DNA of 64,000 bases from Trypanosoma brucei (Eukaryota). The stretch is taken from assembly GCA_000002445.1 (NCBI GenBank), contig CM000208.1, positions 832,001 through 896,000 on the forward strand, in the 5' to 3' direction. Below are positions 19,199-60,763 of this stretch, in pieces. Every line of letters begins with the position of its first letter. Within the stretch, counting starts at the first letter, position 1. The notes beneath the pieces are model-generated. The model had not been told where the DNA came from. It saw only the letters and a program-made list of their open reading frames with translations, and made no database searches. The position numbers were made by a program, and so were the translations under genes.

Positions 19199-22039
19199 AT
19201 GAGTACCGAGAACGAGGGCGAATCAAAAGAAAACCCCTCGTATCTCACTGTAGAATTAGAGCATGTCGGCCATGTCTCCATCGATGCAATTGAGCACCAC
19301 TACATGGAGTTGCAAAAGGAACTAGCGATGGAGCCACATTTGCGACCACTGCGTGAGGAATATGAGAAGATCCACCGCCTCCTCCGTAAAAGTCACGATG
19401 GGGAGAAGCGCTTGATGGCAAAGATAAAGGAATTAGATCATGACTTGATTACACATGCGGCGAACGTTGAAAGTGCGCTGAAACTCGCTCGGCAAGATGA
19501 GGACGTGATTGAGGCCCTGAGGAGGGAAATAGAAAAGGCCTGGTCACTTGCTGACAGCGCGCATGCTCGTGAAAAGGAAACGCGGGAACAAATACAGGAG
19601 TTGCGCCAGCAGGTGGTGCGTCTTAATGGGTTAGTGGATAAAAACACAAGCAGTACATTGGGACAGGAAAACTTTCTCCGCGATCTTATTAAGGCGAAGA
19701 AAGAGTTTGAAAACGAGCGTCTAATGGCACAAGCTAAGGCGGAGCGGCTCGTGGATGAACGGCTATTTGCTCAGAGGAAGATGCACAAACTGCGAGAGGA
19801 TAGTGAATGTGTGCGGCATAGCCTTGAGAACACGCTCAAGAACTATGAAGGCTGTCTACGTAACCTCTCCGATACCAAACGGGATCGCGAGAGTCTGGAG
19901 CAGCAGGTGCGGGAGTACCGTGTAGAAGCGGATGAACATTTGAAAGAGATAGCAAGCGTCCGTCAATCGGTGGCCGAGTTAGCAAAAGAGGAGGAAAAGC
20001 TGAAAGCACTTGCGCTTTCAGAACGGGATTCTGTGGGGCAATTAGCTAAGCAATTGGAAGAACAACAGGACCGATTTAAGAAAGAGGCTGACAAACTTGC
20101 CGCTGTTGAGGCGCACAATGCAGAAATGAAGCAGGAGATACCAAAGATGAGAATGACGCTAAAGGGCCGGCATGCAGAGGTGGAGCGACTTGCCTTATCC
20201 TTACGAAAGGCTCGTAAAGGAGCCGGGGTCCAGCAGACCGAAATAGACAAGCAGATGCAGACGAGGGCTTCGCTGATGGAACAAACGGAGAAAATGCACA
20301 CCGCTATTGAAGAGCTTCTGCGTACATTAGACGACCACGTCAAAGCGTTGCATGATGAAGAGGTCCGATTGAAGGGAGCCATGCCCATAAAAACAAAACT
20401 CCTCACTGAAAATTCGCGCGTTGATAGTGAGAAGGCTATGATGGAGGGCCAGCGGATGCTGGAAGAGGGTAAGCGACGTAACTTAACCCAACAACTAGAA
20501 AAACTTCTTCGGGATAACGAAACAATGCGAAAGAAAATATTTGAACTGGAACAAAATCAGGCGAAAATCCTTGACAATGGACAGCGAGAGGCTTTGCAGT
20601 ATCATCGGGTGCTTGAGCAAACACGTAAGCAACAAGGACAGGCTAAGTTACTGCAGCAGCAGTTGGAGGACAATGAAAAGCGTCTTAAAGCGCAACAGGA
20701 TTTGCTTGACCGAGTCTCCGCAGACCGCGCACGAACGGAAAAGCGGTTGAAGGAAAGTGAACTTGAGTGTTCTGGGTTGAAGCAGCGGTATAATCACAAT
20801 GGGGAGGAGATTCAGTTGTTGAAGATGCAAATTATAGGCAAGGAGGGCGCACTTTGCCGCATTCATATGGTACGCAAGCAACTTCAGCGTGACATCGCCA
20901 ATGCTGAGGAGCGCGCAAGCCACCTGAAGGAAGACGGTACGAGCGCTACCAACCGCTACGAGACGCTAAAGGGAGAGGTAAAGCAACTCAGTCACTTAAT
21001 AGCCGAGTGTGACGCAGAGAAGAGTAAGTACCAATCTAAATTTGCTGCACTTGTTAACGAACGGAATGTACTTGCTACCCAGTTGGTTCGTCGTAACGAA
21101 GAGCTGCGCCTCCTCCACAGCAAAATACGTTTGCAGGAGTGTAGTATTGAAAAAGGTGCGGAGGACTACAACAAGCGTGTGCGGGCTGTGATGGGGAAGC
21201 GAAGTGAACTTGAAGAGCTGCGACTGCGTTGTCGAGTTGCCCTTGCCCGCATGCTTCACGCGGAAAAACTGAGACGGCGAAAACAAAAAATCGAGCGTGA
21301 CCTCTTTACTGAAAAGCGTCGCTCTCGTGCCCTCGCTGACGAGCTTCAACGTCCTGTAAATGTGCACCGATGGCGGCGACTTGAAGGCAATGCCCCCGAG
21401 ATTCTCGACGGCATTTACAAAGTTCACACTCTAGAACGACAGATACTTAAGAAACAAGATTTGCTCGTGGAAAAGACAAAACAATTGGCTGCTCGCAATG
21501 CAGAATATGAGACTGTTAGGAAAAAGCTTGCCGAACTTCAAGGCCCGGAGGTAGCGGGGGAGTTGAGCTTATATGACGAAAACTTGCAATGTCGTCGCGA
21601 ACAAATACGGGGTCTTGACACCGAACTTCAGGAGGTTGAACAGCACGTGGACGTAGTGGCTGAGGAAGTGAAGCAACTGACAGTAGAGTTATGTGAGGTA
21701 AAGCGGCGGTATTATAATGCGAAGCATAAGAATGACCTGCTCCGCCGTGAGCAAGGTGCTTTCCGCGCCATGTGGGGTGGGTCTTCAGCGGTCGCTAGGA
21801 CTGCACTCGCCGCAATCGAAAACGCTTCGGAGCGCCGGCAGCTCCAGCAACAAGGATCAATTTCCAGTCGTCGGCAACCGCTATGGCGCACGCGGGCGCA
21901 AAAGCGCCGCGAGCAAATTAAACAGGAGGAACAAATCGTTCAGGTACTATCGACTGGTGCACCAGCGCCAAGTTTTCCTCTTCAAGTCCCACCAGGTCAG
22001 CGCATTTTCTTGGGGGGTGGTTTTGCGCTAACTCGGTGA
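19199..22039 (+). CDS. large coiled-coil protein (946 aa), probably cytoskeletal or flagellum/basal-body associated
   Basis: Heptad-rich E/K/R/L/Q composition continues for about 850 aa (strings like LKEIASVRQSVAELAKEEEKLKAL). No enzymatic motifs. Confidence 0.75.
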   Translation: MSTENEGESKENPSYLTVELEHVGHVSIDAIEHHYMELQKELAMEPHLRPLREEYEKIHRLLRKSHDGEKRLMAKIKELDHDLITHAANVESALKLARQDEDVIEALRREIEKAWSLADSAHAREKETREQIQELRQQVVRLNGLVDKNTSSTLGQENFLRDLIKAKKEFENERLMAQAKAERLVDERLFAQRKMHKLREDSECVRHSLENTLKNYEGCLRNLSDTKRDRESLEQQVREYRVEADEHLKEIASVRQSVAELAKEEEKLKALALSERDSVGQLAKQLEEQQDRFKKEADKLAAVEAHNAEMKQEIPKMRMTLKGRHAEVERLALSLRKARKGAGVQQTEIDKQMQTRASLMEQTEKMHTAIEELLRTLDDHVKALHDEEVRLKGAMPIKTKLLTENSRVDSEKAMMEGQRMLEEGKRRNLTQQLEKLLRDNETMRKKIFELEQNQAKILDNGQREALQYHRVLEQTRKQQGQAKLLQQQLEDNEKRLKAQQDLLDRVSADRARTEKRLKESELECSGLKQRYNHNGEEIQLLKMQIIGKEGALCRIHMVRKQLQRDIANAEERASHLKEDGTSATNRYETLKGEVKQLSHLIAECDAEKSKYQSKFAALVNERNVLATQLVRRNEELRLLHSKIRLQECSIEKGAEDYNKRVRAVMGKRSELEELRLRCRVALARMLHAEKLRRRKQKIERDLFTEKRRSRALADELQRPVNVHRWRRLEGNAPEILDGIYKVHTLERQILKKQDLLVEKTKQLAARNAEYETVRKKLAELQGPEVAGELSLYDENLQCRREQIRGLDTELQEVEQHVDVVAEEVKQLTVELCEVKRRYYNAKHKNDLLRREQGAFRAMWGGSSAVARTALAAIENASERRQLQQQGSISSRRQPLWRTRAQKRREQIKQEEQIVQVLSTGAPAPSFPLQVPPGQRIFLGGGFALTR

Positions 22040-45300: not shown

Positions 45301-47335
45301 CAATGTAACTCACCGCTTACTCCTGGCATCGTGTTTCTTTTTTTTTTTTTCCCTTCTCTCCCGTCTTCGTTTTTTTTCTTTTCCGTGCATATATCTTCTC
45401 TTAAGGGGGTTATGCTTATGTTTTATGGTCTCCTCTTCATTTCTTTGTGCACTGTTTGACCCTTTCAGTCTCACACATTATTCGTTTGCTTTTCATCTTT
45501 ATCGTATCATCTGATGGTCGTGTTTTTTCTTCTTCTTTTTACATCCTTTTGTTAATGGTGCCGGGTGCTATCAGTTCCCTTGTTCGTCACGGATGAGTTT
45601 TTTGCGCGCAAGGAGGAGACAAAATGCTGCAGTAACATTGTTGTTTCCCTTATATATATATATATATATATTTTCCTTACTGGCGCTTGTCTAAAGGCAG
45701 GCCACTACGTGCAAAGCATCATAGGAGAAGGTGTAGGGGAATGTCAGAACGAAAATGGCCACATCAACAAATAAAATATGGGCTTATAAACTTAGTGAAT
45801 TTCTTTCTTGCTGCTAATGACGCTTGTGGTGTCTTACCTCTCACCTCCCCCCTTGATTGTATTTTTTACCTTTATGGCTTGACAATCTTTTACCTCCTCT
45901 CTTTTCACTATTTATCTTTATTTTGTTATGCAGGCACTCGAAGGTGCACATTTAGACCTGTTGGACGATCGAATAAGAAAAAAAAACCGTGCGCAAACCG
46001 AGAGACAAAGCAAAATTAACTCGATTGTTTTAAGGGAAGAGGTTGTTGTACCACAAGGAAGGAAAGAAAACAAAGAGAGTGCGAGAAGCGATACTGATAT
46101 ATATATATATATATCACAAGCAAACACACACGCACCGGTATTTGAGAGGATTCGGGAACTCTTCGCGTGAGCCCAGTTGAAGCTTTCCTTTTAGCTTTAG
46201 TTTCAACACTTCGGGTAAGTGAAACTTAGCGGAGGGCACAAGTTGAGCGAAGAAAATTAAAAAAAAAAGAAGGAAGGACATCGAGGAGGAACCGCATTGA
46301 ACCTCCAAAATCGTGTGTTTATAGAAATCCCCGCACTCAGGTCCTCACTGACGTGAAGAAAAGAGAGGGGAGAGCCAACGAAACGTACACAGAAGAAAAT
46401 TTTTTGTCGCACAAATATATATATATTTAAATATTTATTTGTTTATTACATATACACATAAGAAAGGTACTTCAGATACCCAGTGAAGAAGAATCCTGGA
46501 AAAGTAAAAAAAAAAAGAAAGGAGAGAGCAAACAAAAAGAAGTTCGAAGCGTGTGCTTTAGAAGTAACCCACACCTTGAAAGAGTAAAACGTACGATACC
46601 GAAACCATTAGGTCGGATCGTTGCACACACGCGCAAAGAGAGAAACGAAGAGAGAGAGAGAGAGAGCGGGAAGAAAAAACAATAACAATAAGAACCACAT
46701 TAAGAACCTTCACCAGAAGCGGTTAGAGCGCCATTGGGTTAGATACGGCAGAAGTTCCATAGTGGTGCAAAGACACTGGACAGCAGCGAAAGGCACTAGA
46801 AGGGAGTGAAACACAAAAGAAAAAGAAACCGGCTACAATTTGAAAGAAGAAGGGAAAGGAAAAGGAAGGAGGAGGAGGATTTTTTTTTTTAAAGAAGTTG
46901 TAGCTCTTCGGTTAGCAAACTGATATCACAACTTAGGATACACTCACTCCTGACTCACTTAGAAGCGTAAGCAAGGAAAAAATAAAAAGATAAGACGGAA
47001 AACAAATTTCTCTCTAAGTGTGGTAAGAAACTGAACGGAACCGAGAAAGAAAAAAAAAAGAAGTCGCAAGCACAGAAAAGCAAGCGAATTGGTTGAACAC
47101 GAAAACAAGCAGGCGAAAAGGTTAACAGCAAAAAAAAAAAGGTCCACAGACGCACTACACTTACATTGTGAGGGCTCCACAAGCGTTTAGTTTTTTGTTT
47201 ACCTGCCCGTGGCACTACCTCGCGTATTACACGTTTAGGGGGGGGTTGATTCGGATAAGAAACTAAAATAGTAACAGAAGATCGTTTAGACAGACGTTTT
47301 TGATAAAGACCGTAAAAAGGGAGACAGCAGATCAG

Positions 47336-48697
47336 ATGGAGGCATCCGTGACAACAAATGAAATTACTGCTGAACCAGCTGCAAATCAAATGCAACTTTC
47401 TAATGAGTATGCAAGCAGTCGGTTTTCCTTAGCAGTGGCTGAGAAGGTTGGAAACAGAAGTCAAGAAGGCAGTGAAAGTCGTGACGTGGTTGATCACTGG
47501 GGTCAGAGTGTTCTTCAACTTTCAATTGTAGGCCTTGGAGGGTCCCGGGGAAGTTTCGGTAATTTTTCCATTGCTTCGGAGTTACTTTCGCTTGGGGAAC
47601 GCAACGAGGAGGAGCAATCTGTGATGCAGCAACGAGCGCCTCTCACAAATCCGGTTGGTGAAGTCGTGCATGCGACGAGTGGCGCGCGGGGGTTTGCGTT
47701 TTCCCCAGTCCAACGAATTCCCTCAGGTGTTTCTCAAAGAAACGAGGCGTCAATTGGGTATAATGATGACATTAGTCGTTCTTCCTCGTGCTCGTCCGGT
47801 AGTGAAGTGATGAGACAGGAGATGCGTCGTGGTGGCGTTCAAAGAACCGAAGTGAAATTGCATCTTTCGCATTCAAATGCTGACGTTGATGCTGAGGAGG
47901 AAGATATATCGACAATCAGGGCAACACCAACAGGTGGTGCGGTAGACACATTAAATGAGTTGTATGGTATTGATAGATATTTCACTTTTCACTACAACCC
48001 TGAGAGAGTGGTTACGCCAATCGATTGTGGTGATCAATGCAGCGGTGGAGGCAGTGGTGTTTCCACAGTCGCCACCGCTGCAGGATTGGAGAGTCAACGT
48101 GAAAGTGACGATAATAGGGTCGCTATGACCCATGAAGAAGATGAGATTGTGGGCGTGACGGCGGAAGGCGAATTTATTTACCGCCGTGATATTGTTGAGG
48201 GGCCAGACCGGCAGCGATGGCAGTCATTTTACCAGCCTATAAACAGACGGTCCAGTGAGCTCGGCGTTAACGAGTGCGTGCCATCCCTCATTCCCTCTAT
48301 GACCATTAATTCTGCACCAACAAGAGTTGAGTCAGGTCCTGCAACCACTACAGAGCCTTACCCTCAGGATCAGTACAATAACCGCTTTCACCCGCTTCAA
48401 AGTTTCGAACGGGTTGCCACTCAACTTCCGCATCTTTCCCGTGAAGCACCTCACGAGGGATTTACTGAGCGTGAGAGTGAGTGGACAGAAGAAGAAAGGG
48501 AGTCTTACCGGCTACTGATGCGGTACCGCCTGTGCGAAAATGAGGAAGAATTTGAATACGAGAAACTTCTCAATTCTGTGAGCACCTTGCGTGAAACTCT
48601 CCACCGGAAACCTATCGAAATGCTGCAACGGCGCCTTGAGGAAAGGCAGCAATTCGCCCGCTCAGGACTTGGAATGCCGCTTGCGCTCCGTTGGTGA
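47336..48697 (+). CDS. hypothetical protein, about 453 aa, acidic and Ser-rich
   Basis: ORF-track start 47300 is TTG; the first ATG is at 47336 (MEASVTTNE). Composition is complex. No domain recognised. Confidence 0.55.
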   Translation: MEASVTTNEITAEPAANQMQLSNEYASSRFSLAVAEKVGNRSQEGSESRDVVDHWGQSVLQLSIVGLGGSRGSFGNFSIASELLSLGERNEEEQSVMQQRAPLTNPVGEVVHATSGARGFAFSPVQRIPSGVSQRNEASIGYNDDISRSSSCSSGSEVMRQEMRRGGVQRTEVKLHLSHSNADVDAEEEDISTIRATPTGGAVDTLNELYGIDRYFTFHYNPERVVTPIDCGDQCSGGGSGVSTVATAAGLESQRESDDNRVAMTHEEDEIVGVTAEGEFIYRRDIVEGPDRQRWQSFYQPINRRSSELGVNECVPSLIPSMTINSAPTRVESGPATTTEPYPQDQYNNRFHPLQSFERVATQLPHLSREAPHEGFTERESEWTEEERESYRLLMRYRLCENEEEFEYEKLLNSVSTLRETLHRKPIEMLQRRLEERQQFARSGLGMPLALRW

Positions 48698-54600: not shown

Positions 54601-55328
54601 TGTATTTGTGTGGAAGCTTGAGGCATCAGGAGGTTGTGAATCACGTGAAGAATATGCTGTTGTTTTTTTTTTCCGTTAGATGGAATAGTGATGACATCAC
54701 TATATTTCTTTACATCCTTCTTATATATTTTTCTTTTATTATTCTTTACAATACAATACAGCAAACAAATAAATATACAAACACAAACTCAAATTCCTCT
54801 GTACCACAAGGAACTTTATCTGTGAAGGATCTTGCAGTAATGAAAAGGAGGCACATATTTGTGTTTGTTTGCGTTTGAGTGTTTAAGTGGATAACACTGT
54901 TTAGACACCGCTTCAAGTGGTCCTATAGGGAGAATTGGACCATTATTTACAGATTGAAACACCATTCGTTAGGATGTGTTGCCGTCTCTTTGTTTTTTTT
55001 TCTTATCACTTTTGTTTTTATTTTTAAGTTTTCCCCCGTATACACCTATTTCGGATCTTCACGTCCATAATGAAACTCTTTGTACATACCACTCTTTTTC
55101 TTTTTGTGATGTTCGTCACTACTCTCCTGAAAATAAATGTCTCTTATTTTTCTTTTCTTGTGTAATTTAGCGTTTGCCTCCATTATATAAGGAAATACTC
55201 TCCCAAAGTAGCAATAAGTAAAGCCAATAGGGAGGGGAACTGGAAGCCACAGTATATAATACGAAACGCTTTAATATTATCCTTCTCAATATACAAGTGT
55301 CAGCTTTTTTTTTTCCGCTGTGGAGGTA

Positions 55329-57182
55329 ATGGTAATGGCTTGCGGTGCATGGTATGTGATGCGCTTTAATCTATTTATGCAATTATTAGCAGTATGCCTG
55401 ATTACATGCGGTACCACAACTGCCGATACGACCGCCTTTTGCCATGAACTGGAACCATTTTTGGTGCAGACACTTCCTCAGGCATCGGCTCATTTGTTAG
55501 AAACAGCAATCGCTAAGGAAGCCGCAGGAGATAATGTTAATGTAACGTGTGCACTAACGCCGGGGAAAAGTGTTGTTGTACTTTTAGGTTCATCCAATGT
55601 ACATCGCTTCAGCCCACTTCGTAACCCACCACCTGTTATCAAACTGGATACTGCTGATGGCGAGTTCACACATGAAGTCCGTGGCACATTCATGTTTAGA
55701 TATTTTCGCTCGTGGGTGAATGGCTTCCGGGCATATTCATGGACTGATCCTGCTTCCGTTGAGCGGTTCTTCTTCAAGCGACACATTTTCCTTCGGTTTC
55801 GAGTTAGTGATTCGACAGGCAACCCAAATGCGGATATTCACTTGAGTGCTAGTGAAGTGCTCACTATGGCAGGACTTCACAGCATTCGAGTCACCTCCTT
55901 CGCACCAGTTGCTGTGGAAATTCGGTTACGGGGAGGGAAAGAGCCCAAGGAGTGCTCAGACGCAACCTGCAGTAAATACGTTGACGCATTTGCAGAGCAT
56001 AGTGATAAAAGCGCGGGATTAACTCGACTCGAAGTACTTCCGCAGCGCTTCACGTGTTCTCCCGGTTATGGCGCCAATGGGTGGGGGTCGGGAGTTTCAG
56101 GAGGCCCCATGGATGGTGAGGTTTATGCTTTTGAAGAAATTGGTCCATACCGCGGTAGTAACTTGTGGATACCTCAATGGTTGTCTGCATGGCTGGGGCG
56201 GCGGCCTATGATGACTGTTTCTGAGAAGGTTGTGCTTGATGGTATGGGACGCCGTAAATTCCTTTTCCACGCTGAGATCCCCGCGGTTAAACCCGTGTGC
56301 CTTCGTCTCTCTGCCGTTAAGAATGACAATTTGATCGTGGAGTTGGAAGAGTCTACGGTGTTCGATACGTTTTGGCTCAAAATAATGCTACTGTTTGTGT
56401 TGCTGGTATTCATTAAGCCGTGGGTGGAGGAAATACCAGCACTCCAGATATTCATCGCCGGTCTTGGTAGCGTGACACTGCTTTTTGTAGTCACAATACT
56501 TTACGTGCTGAAAAGGTTGCAGGGAATGACTATTGGAAAGGTTGGTCTTGTTGCAATGGCAACACTGGGGGGCACCGCTCTTCTCGCTGAGACATTCTTG
56601 AGTGCTGTAGTTGCCCTTTACTATGCCTTTGTTCATTACGACAATGAGGCAGAGATGATTTTTTATGGGAGCGCCATGCTCCTCGTCTTTGGTCTTACTT
56701 GCGGTTTGCTTTCGAGGCATTACTGCGCCACTTATCTTACGGAGCTTACACGGTGGACATTGCGGCTACTGCAGCTCGCCGTCCTTGCATGTGCAATCAT
56801 GCAGAACCGCGAGGCAACGTTCGCAAGTTTCGTCGCCGCTCTTCTCTTTCACCCACCTCGCATTTTACGGCTCATTCAGTGGTTCTCCTCTTCCAGTTCA
56901 TTGGTGAATAACGAAAATGAACCTCAGGAAACATTTCCCAGTGAGGCGTTGCGCGAGGTTACGTATGTAACACCTCTCTGTATGGAGGGACGTACTGGAA
57001 GGGTTTCCACTATGGATTCGAGGGAAAGATTAGATTTGTATCGTATCAGTGGAAATGAGTACACACATCGTGCTCTTGAGGACCTCGCCTGCCGTGTGAA
57101 CAGCAATCCTGACCGTTACGCTTCAAAAGTGAATGATGCTGGAGGCGTTTTGAATTGGGCCAAAGGCTACCAGTACTCATAG
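55329..57182 (+). CDS. signal-peptide-bearing membrane protein with an about 330-aa luminal domain followed by about 7 TM helices (LUSTR/GPR107/TMEM87-like architecture), about 617 aa
   Basis: ORF-track start 55320 is GTG; ATGs lie at 55329 and 55335. There is a hydrophobic signal peptide (MACGAWYVMRFNLFMQLLAVCLITCG), a Cys-containing ectodomain, then a clustered run of hydrophobic helices from about residue 350. Confidence 0.6.
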   Translation: MVMACGAWYVMRFNLFMQLLAVCLITCGTTTADTTAFCHELEPFLVQTLPQASAHLLETAIAKEAAGDNVNVTCALTPGKSVVVLLGSSNVHRFSPLRNPPPVIKLDTADGEFTHEVRGTFMFRYFRSWVNGFRAYSWTDPASVERFFFKRHIFLRFRVSDSTGNPNADIHLSASEVLTMAGLHSIRVTSFAPVAVEIRLRGGKEPKECSDATCSKYVDAFAEHSDKSAGLTRLEVLPQRFTCSPGYGANGWGSGVSGGPMDGEVYAFEEIGPYRGSNLWIPQWLSAWLGRRPMMTVSEKVVLDGMGRRKFLFHAEIPAVKPVCLRLSAVKNDNLIVELEESTVFDTFWLKIMLLFVLLVFIKPWVEEIPALQIFIAGLGSVTLLFVVTILYVLKRLQGMTIGKVGLVAMATLGGTALLAETFLSAVVALYYAFVHYDNEAEMIFYGSAMLLVFGLTCGLLSRHYCATYLTELTRWTLRLLQLAVLACAIMQNREATFASFVAALLFHPPRILRLIQWFSSSSSLVNNENEPQETFPSEALREVTYVTPLCMEGRTGRVSTMDSRERLDLYRISGNEYTHRALEDLACRVNSNPDRYASKVNDAGGVLNWAKGYQYS

Positions 57183-58337: not shown

Positions 58338-60763
58338 ATGTTGTCACCGATTGTGGACATGAAATCCGTTGGCACGGACGATGGCTTTGATATTTACCTT
58401 CCAGGGAGTGACGCATTCTATTTTAAACGTCAGTTACACTATCAACCATACACTCCGTGTGCTTTTCCTGTGGAGTGGCTTGGGCATCAGGGTAAGATGC
58501 ACAAAACATCCGTTCATATGCGAATATCACCTTCAAACCTAGAGGAGGCTTGCGCTTCCGGTAGTTTGGGGTACGTTATCATGTTCTGGGCTCAAGGACA
58601 GAATATTAAGGGCTGCGAATCCGTAGTTGGTGGTGGCGATACACTTCTCATGACAGCGGCGTATAAGGGCCATATACATGTCGTGCGTTTTCTTGTTGAT
58701 GCGGGCGCTGATATCAACGCAACGAATAGCGCAGGGTTCAGTGCCCTGCATATGGCAGCATCAGCAATTAACTACCACATTGTGCGATTTCTCTCGACCA
58801 CGGTGCTGATCCAACAAAGAAGAACCACCAAGGGTATAGTGCGTATTGTGTTGCTGTGCAGAACGCAAGTCTTCCTCTTTTGCTCTTGTTGGCAGAACAT
58901 CGTCCCATTGATATCCATGAGAGAGATGAAATGGGCCACGCACTGCTCCATTGGGCAGCATACAACAATTCTGTTGCCATATGTCAGTACCTTGTTGAGG
59001 TGTGCAAGATGGATATAAACGTCGTCGGTAAAGATGGACGCACTGCTCTTGTGTGGGCGGCACGTGAAGGTTATGCTGACGTTGTTGAATATTTACTTTG
59101 CGCTGGAGCCGATGTAGACGTGGTCGACACGGACGGGTATACCGCACTGAATTACGCAAAGCATCGGAATCACCCGGAGGTACAATATGTACTGGAAAAT
59201 TATCCTTTAGCACAAAGGGGAGCCACCGGAATGGCAGCGGGCGACGGATTATTGGGTAATCAGTCGCTGGTTAACGGGGGTTACGTCACCGCACATAATA
59301 TGCGATGCCGCGGAACATTTTCGATGCTCTACCACGAACCGTTCTTCGCTGCCATGTCTGTTCTTGGCGCGGTGCATGTGCTTTTGGCGCACTACTCCTT
59401 GATGCTGTTACCTCCGCTTTTTAGTTATGCACCGTTTGGCATGTTTTTCTTCCGAAACACGTTATGGATGGCGGTATTTGGTTACCCCGTACAAGGCGGC
59501 AAACCGGAACTAACCATCCTCCAACAGTCAGGAATTGGTCGCTCATTTTCCGACACCATCCGCGGCACGTGGCGTTTCCGCGATCGTGATGCGGCGTCAC
59601 TCTTTGCCTTGACGACCTTTATGTTGTTGCAGCTGCGAGCGTGGGCGCTTATGGGGTTTGAACCCTTTTTGCCGTTTCTTTCCACAAGTAACTCGGTAGT
59701 AAAACTAAATGCAAGCCTGAATACCACAGATAAGGATTTACACGATGGGGGGAGTCGTGCGGTTAATTTTATGCAGCCTGTAATGTGTTTTCTCACTCTA
59801 TTCTTGCTGGTATCCGTGGTACTATGTAAGTTGCTTTCCATGCGGTCCGTGTACAAGCCCGAGTTTGGTTCGTTGGTCACTTCTCCTGTTTGGAATATCA
59901 TTAAGCACCGTGCATATAATTGGCTCCATCCAAGAATTATCTTCATGGAACGACATTTGGTACTCCCTCTTCGTGCCTTCTACTGTTATGAAAAGGACGT
60001 TGTTATGGAGCGATACGATGGCTACAGTGCGGTAATGGATTGCCCCGTTGCAGCGAGTAACCACGCTTGGTTCTTTATAGCAGTTTTTTGTTTTATGGTC
60101 CTGCAGTGGTTAATATTCATTTCTGGGTGGAGGCAGGCAAGGGTCATGCTCAAGTGTCCTCGTAGTGATTCGCTCGGGGAATATATTTCCTCATCTGCGT
60201 GGAACCTTCTCGTCCATGCCCTACCGTGTCGTGATCCCACGACCATAGATGTAACTGGAAAATCATATTTTTGGGTGTTTATGTTTCGGTACATTATTCC
60301 AACAACAACCAACCGTCTTGGTGTATGGTTGCTTCACTATAGTCTAATTGCAGCAATCATATCTACGTATTGTTTTTATCGCCAACTAGTGGCAGCGGCT
60401 ATTGGTGCGACACGCATGGAGTTGGCAAACCGAACAGCAACCAGTGGTAATGGCGGGCTTGTCTCCATATTTCCACCCTCCTTTGTTCCTTTCAAGGACA
60501 CGAATAGTGCTGCTGCCACGTGGACGCCTCCAGAGGGCCACTGTGAGGGAATGTTAACTATTGTGGACGATTTGGCTGCCGGAAACGTTGCGCACCGAAA
60601 GGTCGGGTCGCATTGCATTTACGCTGACAGCAGGTTTTCTATTCTTAACATAATCTACTTTCTGTTGGGCATTTCTGGTCGCCGCTGGAGGGGCGCGGTG
60701 GCAGTATCTTCTTTCAATTCTCCGATAAGCAGTGTATCCCTGTTGGAAGGTCCTCTTGCTTGA
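58338..60763 (+). CDS. ankyrin-repeat (5-6 repeats) multi-pass membrane protein; the reading frame is broken by an apparent 1-nt deletion at about 58793-58796 (frame 0 ORF 58338-59018 continues in frame 2 from about 58790 to 60763)
   Basis: Ankyrin consensus is present (GDTLLMTAAYKGHIHVVRFLVDAGADINATNSAGFSALHMAAS...). It continues seamlessly only if one base is inserted in tttctctcg (VRFL|LDHGADPTKKNHQGYSAYCVAVQNASLPLLLLLAEH ... HALLHWAAYNNSVAICQYLVEVCKMDINVVGKDGRTALVWAAREGYADVVEYLLCAGADVDVV). Downstream there are 6 or more TM helices. No DHHC motif is found in this frame. Confidence 0.6.

What the first reader, a model, noticed from the sequence alone, without database searches (positions are those of the whole stretch)
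58780..58860. Ankyrin-repeat membrane protein gene interrupted by a 1-nt frameshift in a CT dinucleotide tract
Frame 0 (58338-59018) and frame 2 (about 58790-60763) together encode an uninterrupted ankyrin array, VRFL|LDHGADPTKKN..., only if one base is restored within tttctctcg. As it stands, frame 0 drifts into nonsense (STTVLIQQRRTTKG) and stops at 59018. This could be a sequencing or assembly error in a short CT repeat, a strain-specific pseudogenising mutation, or a site of programmed or slippage-based frameshifting. The protein combines 5-6 ankyrin repeats with 6 or more TM helices, the architecture of ankyrin-DHHC palmitoyltransferases. No DHHC motif is visible in the downstream frame, so either the catalytic box is lost or the family is different.
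Basis: seen in the sequence. Interest (0 to 1): 0.55.

Follow-up and report, generated by a model that had tools for sequence, protein, structure and literature searches.

The report
One-base break in ankyrin–DHHC-like gene
A conserved trypanosome gene for an ankyrin-repeat membrane protein, a palmitoyltransferase look-alike without the catalytic motif, is split in this reference sequence by one missing C that every related genome examined still has, so this is an ordinary strain- or assembly-specific lesion and not a recoding signal.

Summary
Frame 0 (58338-59018) and frame +2 (open 58772-60763) join into one 808-aa protein if one C is restored in CTC^TC (58791-58795).

The window is Trypanosoma brucei brucei TREU927 chromosome 10, and the gene is Tb927.10.3450. 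UniProt holds only a truncated 510-aa model (Q38BQ2). A published table already notes "2 CDS for Tb927.10.3450".

Five other T. brucei-group loci read CTCCTC and encode an intact 808-aa protein. Orthologues across trypanosomatids keep the junction motif LLDHGAD. No other lesion is present, and codon differences run 15-18 synonymous to 6 non-synonymous, so this is not an old pseudogene.

There is no slippery heptamer and no stable downstream RNA structure, and the shift is not conserved. Programmed frameshifting is therefore very unlikely.

I could not tell a real TREU927 allele, possibly on one haplotype, from a consensus error. I lean slightly towards a real allele.

Interest is low to moderate.

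The parts
58338..58793 (+). Upstream CDS segment in frame 0, codons 1-152 of the 808-codon gene (Tb927.10.3450). It ends ...V R F L.
   Evidence: Identical to the intact orthologues apart from known polymorphisms.
58791..58795 (+). Lesion site. It reads CTCTC here and CTCCTC in relatives, so one C is missing. Chromosome position is about Tb927_10_v5.1:891,690.
   Evidence: DNA alignment A1 against five T. brucei-group loci. It is the only coding indel in 8.4 kb compared with gambiense and IVM-t1.
58794..59018 (+). Out-of-frame tail of the frame-0 ORF: 74 nonsense codons (STTVLIQQRR...) followed by TAA.
   Evidence: Searched together with the 10 in-frame residues before it, this tail has no relative among 5.8 billion protein clusters.
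58793..60763 (+). Downstream CDS segment in frame +2, codons 153-808 plus the TGA stop. It is uninterrupted.
   Evidence: Against five related loci there are 15-18 synonymous and 6 non-synonymous codon differences over the whole repaired gene and no other lesion.
59231..60763 (+). The 510-aa gene model deposited for TREU927 (EAN77768.1 / XP_822596.1 / Q38BQ2). It is an N-terminally truncated model that lacks the ankyrin array.
   Evidence: The exact P0122 sequence is found in frame +2 starting at ATG 59231.
58533..59221 (+). Ankyrin-repeat array of about 6-7 repeats (aa ~66-295 of the repaired protein). The frameshift falls inside the third repeat.
   Evidence: Pfam Ank_2 E 1.2e-35, Ank 1.3e-29, Ank_4, Ank_3 and Ank_5 on the repaired protein. 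Repeat boundaries were read from the sequence.
59315..60403 (+). Membrane domain with six long helices (residues 29-56, 67-83, 122-140, 168-201, 278-307 and 359-391 of the 510-aa segment).
   Evidence: AlphaFold2 model built from a 31-sequence alignment, pLDDT 83.7, pTM 0.86. The DHHC-enzyme fold is shown.
59975..60049 (+). Cytosolic beta-hairpin region that corresponds to the DHHC cysteine-rich domain. Most zinc ligands are lost.
   Evidence: Strands 249-273 in the model. Only 2 Cys and 2 His occur in the 47-residue stretch. Weak Pfam PF01529 match at aa 540-698, E 5e-4.
60017..60028 (+). GAT GGC TAC AGT = D-G-Y-S, the degenerate equivalent of the catalytic DHHC tetrapeptide.
   Evidence: hhalign places DGYS on DHYC (probability 95.6%) and on DHHC (probability 90.6%). 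Family variants are listed.
60404..60424 (+). G-A-T-R-M-E-L, a conserved G-x-T-x-x-E motif just after the last membrane helix. It resembles the TTxE motif of DHHC enzymes.
   Evidence: G392, T394 and E397 are invariant among 10 kinetoplastid orthologues, and E397 is invariant across all 31 family members. Equating it with TTxE is my inference from knowledge of DHHC20.

Best explanation
The feature is a non-programmed deletion of a single C (CTCCTC to CTCTC, window 58791-58795). It is private to the T. b. brucei TREU927 reference chromosome 10. It splits the otherwise intact 808-codon gene Tb927.10.3450 into a 226-codon ORF (152 real codons plus 74 nonsense codons) and a long downstream frame.

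I commit, narrowly, to the deletion being a real allele of the strain, most probably carried on one of the two haplotypes and captured in the consensus. A ribosome scanning from the spliced-leader cap would then make only a short ankyrin fragment from that allele, and the membrane domain would be lost.

The normal product is an N-terminal ankyrin array joined to a six-helix DHHC-fold membrane domain. Its catalytic Asp-His-His-Cys box is replaced by Asp-Gly-Tyr-Ser and most of its zinc ligands are gone. It most likely cannot auto-acylate. By analogy with ZDHHC13, it probably acts as a membrane scaffold or substrate-recruiting partner for active palmitoyltransferases.

Shown here: the lesion, its privacy to this sequence, the intactness and constraint of the gene, the DHHC fold, and the loss of the motif. 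Inferred: that the allele is real rather than an error, and the scaffold function.
For: The lesion and its privacy. Five T. brucei-group loci carry CTCCTC and encode 808 aa.

Identity of the window: P0122 matches exactly. The offset to Tb927_10_v5.1 is fixed by Tb927.10.3400 and CMF76b and by the 681-nt CDS of Tb927.10.3450 at 891235.

Constraint and recency: 15-18 synonymous against 6 non-synonymous codon differences, no second lesion, and 656 open codons. The junction is invariant in 12 orthologues. It is the only coding indel in 8.4 kb.

Real allele favoured over error: Carnes et al. 2015 (PMC4288722) mapped TREU927 Illumina reads to this reference. They found 1630 CDS indels, of which only 58 were homozygous discrepancies (candidate reference errors). 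The rest were heterozygous, and they note that the reference holds one allele at heterozygous loci. The context is a CC pair, not a long homopolymer.

Against: There is no direct read-level evidence. TREU927 itself is not indexed in the contig look-up. The lack of any other assembly carrying the out-of-frame tail is therefore uninformative.

Many of the heterozygous indel calls in the Carnes table probably lie in repetitive or dubious ORFs, so the prior favouring a real allele is soft.

The reference is Sanger-era, and 58 homozygous CDS indel discrepancies are documented. A clean single lesion in a strongly conserved gene is also what a consensus error looks like.

T. evansi's indel table lists nothing in Tb927.10.3450. 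The gene appears to have been excluded from that analysis, because it is on the 'not found in Tev' list.
Confidence: 0.5

Rival explanations
1. The missing C is a base-calling or consensus error in the Sanger-era TREU927 chromosome 10 sequence. The strain's DNA carries CTCCTC on both haplotypes and makes the full 808-aa protein.
For: The gene is intact in every other T. brucei-group locus examined and is conserved and constrained. There is exactly one lesion, with 656 open codons after it. Documented homozygous discrepancies between TREU927 Illumina reads and this reference include 58 CDS indels (PMC4288722). Annotators kept both ORFs under one gene ID ('2 CDS for Tb927.10.3450').
Against: Finished Sanger sequence rarely drops a base outside homopolymers or compressions. 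In the same study heterozygous CDS indels outnumber homozygous discrepancies about 27 to 1. The lesion is still present in the v5 coordinates cited in the 2015 table and the window matches v5.1 coordinates. That persistence is weak evidence, because the reference was evidently never corrected with Illumina reads.
Confidence: 0.42
2. The break is a programmed -1 ribosomal frameshift, or another recoding or editing event, that restores the 808-aa protein from the sequence as given.
For: A -1 slip after the CTC at 58791-58793 would re-read C58793 and give exactly ...FLLDHGAD..., as the sequence shows.
Against: No X XXY YYZ slippery heptamer lies in frame 0 (CGA TTT CTC TCG). The 120 nt downstream fold no better than shuffles (z = -0.10). 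The shift is absent from all relatives, which are simply in frame. From established knowledge, kinetoplastid RNA editing inserts and deletes U in mitochondrial transcripts, not C in nuclear ones.
Confidence: 0.02
3. The gene is a long-standing unitary pseudogene decaying in the T. b. brucei lineage.
For: There is a frameshift early in the gene, at codon 153 of 808.
Against: There is only one disabling lesion. 656 downstream codons remain open. Synonymous changes outnumber non-synonymous ones 15-18 to 6. The gene is intact in T. b. gambiense, two T. equiperdum assemblies and three sequencing-run assemblies.
Confidence: 0.03

Closest known systems
ZDHHC13 (HIP14L), the ankyrin-repeat DHHC protein of vertebrates proposed to be a pseudoenzyme (bioRxiv 10.64898/2026.04.20.719575)
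   Same: Both have an N-terminal ankyrin array, a six-helix DHHC-fold membrane domain and a degenerate catalytic tetrapeptide. [quoted passage not shown] A scaffold role that does not need the catalytic Cys is proposed for it.
   Different: Here the degeneration goes much further. Both His residues and the Cys are replaced (DGYS), and only 2 Cys and 2 His remain in the 47-residue stretch equivalent to the cysteine-rich domain, too few for two canonical zinc sites. The loss is fixed across a whole family of 31 sampled members, of which only 2 keep a Cys. Orthology with ZDHHC13 was not tested, and an independent origin is likely.
Akr1p / zDHHC17 / TcHIP (TcPAT1): active ankyrin-repeat palmitoyltransferases with DHHC or DHYC
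   Same: The domain order is the same, ankyrin repeats followed by membrane helices with a DHHC-type cytosolic loop. A profile of the family reaches ankyrin + DHYC proteins (P0153; hhalign probability 95.6%).
   Different: Those proteins keep the catalytic Cys and the cysteine-rich domain. TcPAT1 is a separate T. cruzi gene (2610 bp, DHYC; PMC5967602), distinct from the T. cruzi orthologue found here (P0003, 801 aa, DGYS).
Interrupted coding sequences in finished reference genomes (authentic mutation versus sequencing error)
   Same: A single-base indel splits a conserved ORF in one reference while relatives are intact. The annotation ends up with a truncated or two-piece model.
   Different: Nothing distinctive. 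This is one more instance, and the two-CDS state of Tb927.10.3450 is already recorded (PMC4288722, S2 Table).

Membership tests
DHHC (zDHHC) protein S-acyltransferases, Pfam PF01529 | Four-helix membrane core with a cytosolic beta-hairpin domain between TM2 and TM3 of the core (the DHHC fold) | tested here: met
DHHC (zDHHC) protein S-acyltransferases, Pfam PF01529 | Sequence match to the family profile above Pfam's gathering score | tested here: inconclusive
   The window protein scores 20.5-21.3 bits against a cut-off of 28.7 (E 3e-4 to 5e-4). Most orthologues carry a precomputed PF01529 hit. hhalign probabilities are 95.6% and 90.6% to DHYC and DHHC proteins. A PDB sequence-profile search found nothing.
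DHHC (zDHHC) protein S-acyltransferases, Pfam PF01529 | Catalytic Asp-His-His-Cys tetrapeptide (known tolerated variants keep the Cys, for example DHYC) | tested here: not met
   The aligned position reads DGYS. Across 31 family members the variants are DSYS 10, DGYS 8, DGWS 3, DSWS 3 and single others. No member has His at the first His position, and a Cys occurs in only 2.
DHHC (zDHHC) protein S-acyltransferases, Pfam PF01529 | Cysteine-rich domain with two CCHC-type zinc sites | tested here: not met
   Only 2 Cys and 2 His occur in the 47-residue equivalent stretch. From established knowledge of DHHC20, the canonical requirement is 6 Cys plus 2 His.
DHHC (zDHHC) protein S-acyltransferases, Pfam PF01529 | Auto-acylation and acyl transfer to substrate cysteines | not testable with these tools
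   This needs acyl-biotin exchange or click-palmitate assays.
Ankyrin-repeat palmitoyltransferase subfamily (Akr1 / zDHHC17 / zDHHC13) | N-terminal ankyrin array followed by six membrane helices | tested here: met
   Pfam ankyrin hits cover aa ~57-300. Six long helices appear in the model.
Ankyrin-repeat palmitoyltransferase subfamily (Akr1 / zDHHC17 / zDHHC13) | Orthology to Akr1, zDHHC17 or zDHHC13 by phylogeny | not tested
   There is only a profile hit to an unnamed ankyrin + DHYC protein (P0153). No tree was built.
Programmed -1 ribosomal frameshift sites | Slippery heptamer X XXY YYZ in the zero frame | tested here: not met
   The frame-0 codons are CGA TTT CTC TCG.
Programmed -1 ribosomal frameshift sites | Stable downstream stimulatory RNA structure | tested here: not met
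   The 120 nt downstream fold at -27.8 kcal/mol, z = -0.10 against shuffles. Pseudoknots were not searched.
Programmed -1 ribosomal frameshift sites | Conservation of the frame change in relatives | tested here: not met
   All five T. brucei-group loci and 12 orthologues are in frame.
Decaying unitary pseudogene | Multiple disabling lesions and relaxed constraint | tested here: not met
   There is one lesion only, and 15-18 synonymous against 6 non-synonymous codon differences.

The most novel reading that the evidence does not exclude
The deletion is real and homozygous in TREU927. The genome-reference, fly-transmissible strain that is also the parent of the TrypTag lines would then be a natural knockout of a conserved ankyrin pseudo-palmitoyltransferase. 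That would show the protein is dispensable through the whole life cycle and would provide a ready-made null background. Separately, the family itself appears undescribed: DHHC fold, no catalytic triad, found in all trypanosomatids sampled and in more distant sequences of unknown taxonomy. It would be an ancient parallel to ZDHHC13.
Probability: 0.15. Interest if true: 0.45.

Novelty: already known. Interest (0 to 1): 0.22.

Why it matters
The value is mostly practical. The widely used TREU927 protein set carries only a 510-aa, ankyrin-less model of Tb927.10.3450 (Q38BQ2). Domain searches, proteomics databases, tagging designs and orthology tables built on that model miss half the protein. The intact 808-aa form from T. 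b. gambiense or T. equiperdum should be used instead.

If the lesion is a real allele, TREU927 is at least heterozygous for a null of a conserved gene. That matters for knockout and tagging experiments in this strain.

The underlying family is mildly interesting biologically. It is a lineage-wide ankyrin + DHHC-fold protein with the catalytic Asp-His-His-Cys replaced by D-G/S-Y/W-S. It could help test the idea, recently raised for ZDHHC13, that ankyrin DHHC proteins can work as non-catalytic scaffolds.

Tried and rejected
(1) I looked for independent assemblies carrying the same frameshift. Exact look-ups of the 226-aa ORF, the 510-aa model, and the 635-aa and 610-aa downstream ORFs all returned nothing. 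A homology search with the out-of-frame tail also returned nothing. The intact 688-aa neighbour is likewise not on record, so TREU927 is simply not indexed and these negatives carry no weight.

(2) I tested whether Logan contigs L003-L005 are transcripts with a spliced leader. No spliced-leader sequence was found. L004 has 25 nt of unexplained sequence at its 5' end.

(3) A PDB search with a sequence profile of the C-terminal half gave 0 hits. Only structure comparison worked.

(4) The first AlphaFold2 run, with 10 sequences, was unusable (pLDDT 47). The second, with 31 sequences, was good.

(5) The afdb50 fold library was unavailable.

(6) I tried to find read-level evidence in the supplements of Carnes et al. 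2015. The T. evansi indel table jumps from Tb927.10.3420 to Tb927.10.3500, with nothing at about 891,690. The gene seems to have been excluded from that analysis, because it is on the 'not found in Tev' list. This was uninformative.

(7) Searching for the gene ID through TrypTag supplements gave nothing. Tb927.10.3430, a 7-TM nuclear-envelope protein, turned out not to be this gene and is presumably an upstream neighbour.

(8) A literature search for 'DGYS' was unproductive.

(9) RNA editing and transcriptional slippage were considered and rejected on established knowledge: the gene is nuclear, the missing base is a C, and there is no long homopolymer.

Full report
**What is in the sequence.** The frame-0 ORF runs from ATG 58338 to TAA 59016-59018 and is 226 aa long. 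Frame +2 is open from 58772 to TGA 60761-60763. Frame 0 reads ...NYHIVRFL and then turns into nonsense (STTVLIQQRRTTKG...). Frame +2 continues ...LDHGADPTKKNHQGYSAY..., which is the expected continuation of an ankyrin repeat. Inserting one base between 58790 and 58796 gives a single 808-aa protein. The truncated product is 226 aa, not 227. The context is a CC pair inside CTCCTC rather than a CT repeat.

**Where the window comes from.** The repaired protein is 99% identical over its full length to an 808-aa protein of T. b. gambiense DAL972 (CBH15348.1) and to an 808-aa protein of T. equiperdum. The same 90% cluster contains a 510-aa protein of T. b. brucei TREU927 (EAN77768.1 / XP_822596.1 / Q38BQ2).
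- The 510-aa sequence occurs exactly in frame +2 of the window, starting at ATG 59231.
- A TriTrypDB-derived table places Tb927.10.3400 (453 aa) and CMF76b (946 aa) at coordinates that match window ORFs 47300-48697 and 19199-22039. This fixes window position x at Tb927_10_v5.1 position x + 832,897.
- A supplementary table of Carnes et al. [quoted passage not shown] That is exactly the 681-nt frame-0 ORF.
- The gene is therefore Tb927.10.3450, the lesion lies at about chr10:891,690, and the split state is already recorded in the reference annotation.

**Is the lesion shared?** It is not. Five related loci all read TTTCTCCTCGAC where the window reads TTTCTC-TCGAC, and all encode the 808-aa protein. 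The five are T. b. gambiense DAL972 chr10, T. b. equiperdum IVM-t1 chr10, and three assemblies of sequencing runs ERR7929161-3.
- Across 8.4 kb compared with gambiense and IVM-t1, every other indel is intergenic.
- Against those loci the repaired gene differs at 15-18 synonymous and 6 non-synonymous codons and has no second disabling change.
- The junction motif (R/S)(F/L/Y)LLDHGAD is invariant in orthologues from T. grayi, T. cruzi, T. rangeli, T. theileri, T. conorhini, Leishmania and Phytomonas.
- The gene is thus normally intact and under purifying selection. The lesion is very recent or artefactual.

**Programmed frameshifting?** A -1 slip after CTC 58791-58793 would formally regenerate ...FLLDHGAD.... 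However, the zero-frame codons (CGA TTT CTC TCG) contain no X XXY YYZ heptamer. The next 120 nt fold no better than shuffled sequence (z = -0.10). No relative has a frame change at all. From established knowledge, kinetoplastid RNA editing acts on mitochondrial transcripts and on U residues. I put recoding at about 2%.

**Real allele or reference error?** I could not get read-level evidence. Exact look-ups of every plausible ORF of the frameshifted version, and a search with the out-of-frame tail, found nothing. The intact neighbouring gene is also not on record, so TREU927 is not indexed and these negatives mean nothing.
- The best available prior comes from Carnes et al. 2015 (PMC4288722). 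They mapped TREU927 Illumina reads onto this reference and found 1630 indels in CDS. Only 58 of these were homozygous discrepancies, which are candidate reference errors. The remainder were heterozygous. They note that the reference holds one allele at heterozygous loci.
- Many of the heterozygous calls surely lie in repetitive or doubtful ORFs. Even so, this tilts the balance slightly towards a genuine allele on one haplotype, about 0.5, against a consensus error, about 0.42.
- The T. evansi indel table has no entry in this gene. The gene appears to have been excluded from that analysis, because it is on the list of Tb927 CDS 'not found in TevSTIB805ra'.

**What the gene encodes.** Pfam finds a strong ankyrin array (Ank_2 E 1.2e-35) and only a sub-threshold DHHC match (20.5 bits against a cut-off of 28.7) at aa 540-698.
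- A profile of the C-terminal 504 positions was searched against 1.84 billion representative proteins. It found 26 clear family members (E < 1e-30). At E 8e-5 to 9e-4 it also reached bona fide DHHC, DHYC and DHFC proteins, including an ankyrin + DHYC protein.
- hhalign gives 95.6% and 90.6% probability and lays DGYS directly on DHYC and DHHC.
- An AlphaFold2 model from a 31-sequence alignment is confident (pLDDT 83.7, pTM 0.86). It shows six long helices with a beta-hairpin domain between the fourth and fifth.
- The fold is therefore DHHC. The defining chemistry is absent, however. The tetrapeptide is DGYS here, and across 31 members it is DSYS, DGYS, DGWS, DSWS and similar. No member has the first His and only two have a Cys. 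The 47-residue equivalent of the cysteine-rich domain keeps only 2 Cys and 2 His.
- A G-x-T-x-x-E motif after the last helix is conserved. By my inference it corresponds to TTxE.
- The loss of the box is ancestral to the family and has nothing to do with the frameshift.

**Likely function (inferred).** The protein has no general base and no thiol nucleophile, so it should be unable to auto-acylate. The closest precedent is vertebrate ZDHHC13, an ankyrin DHHC protein with DQHC, DQHS or DHHS. A recent preprint argues that ZDHHC13 is a pseudoenzyme that promotes substrate acylation without its own catalytic Cys, probably by scaffolding other enzymes. I suggest the same kind of role here: ankyrin-mediated recruitment at a membrane. 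Confidence in this is low.
- The active ankyrin palmitoyltransferase of T. cruzi (TcPAT1/TcHIP; 2610 bp, DHYC) is a different gene. Surveys of trypanosomatid palmitoyltransferases select on the DHHC motif and so would not list this family. One possible exception is an ankyrin-bearing 'hypothetical protein 1' in an L. donovani catalogue, which I did not verify.

**Verdict.** The finding is real but ordinary. It is a one-base lesion private to a reference sequence, in a gene that is intact everywhere else, and the annotation already flags it as a two-CDS gene. Its practical consequence is a misleading 510-aa protein model. The side observation of a lineage-wide ankyrin pseudo-palmitoyltransferase is modestly interesting.

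Noticed in passing
Orthologues P0002, P0003, P0005, P0006 (T. grayi, T. cruzi, T. theileri, T. conorhini): These proteins are named 'putative 6-phosphofructo-2-kinase/fructose-2,6-biphosphatase' in their source records. Their Pfam content is only ankyrin repeats plus, in most of them, a DHHC-like domain. This looks like a propagated mis-annotation, probably through ankyrin-repeat similarity.
   Followed up: partly
window 59231-60763: The deposited TREU927 protein (Q38BQ2, 510 aa) starts at an internal Met and omits the whole ankyrin array. The array lies in what that model treats as upstream sequence.
   Followed up: yes
window 58614-58616 (codon 93): This codon is tri-allelic among T. brucei-group sequences. 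It is TGC (Cys) here and CAC (His) in gambiense, IVM-t1 and the ERR79291xx assemblies. T. equiperdum OVI has Arg at the protein level.
   Followed up: no
L004:1-25: The Logan contig from ERR7929162 begins with 25 nt (TCACAGGAAACTAGTTCGATGCTAG) that are not in the window and are not the T. brucei spliced leader. They are joined at about window 58305. This may be a chimeric end or an adapter.
   Followed up: partly
window ~57928 (also 57646, 58107, 58184, 61122): The intergenic TG/CA microsatellite is 20 nt longer here than in gambiense and IVM-t1. Several 3-4-nt intergenic indels are also present. All indels other than the frameshift are intergenic.
   Followed up: no
window 1-64000: All large ORFs with family matches lie on the + strand, so the window is one polycistronic unit. 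They are an AMP-binding enzyme (probably ACS5, Tb927.10.3260), a Rubicon-homology protein, CMF76b, a protein kinase (probably Tb927.10.3340), an MFS transporter and a TLDc protein. GC content drops to about 0.31 at 50-54 kb.
   Followed up: partly
Tb927.10.3410 / Tb927.10.3420, i.e. about window 49.9-51.7 kb: In the T. evansi indel table these two small 'genes' carry several heterozygous frameshift indels each, and they sit in or next to the low-GC stretch of the window. They may not be real coding genes.
   Followed up: no
P0130-P0147 (hits of the profile search): These are family members of 290-880 aa and 24-32% identity to the window protein. Their source organisms are unknown, because the library carries no names. 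Two of them (P0140 with DGWC, P0143 with DSWC) keep a Cys at the catalytic position. P0130 looks like a mis-assembled duplicate.
   Followed up: partly
window 55320-57182 (620-aa ORF upstream): This ORF encodes a signal-peptide-like N-terminus, a large domain and several C-terminal hydrophobic helices, with no Pfam hit. It is a candidate for Tb927.10.3430, which two papers report as a 7-TM nuclear-envelope and spindle protein. The identity is not verified.
   Followed up: partly
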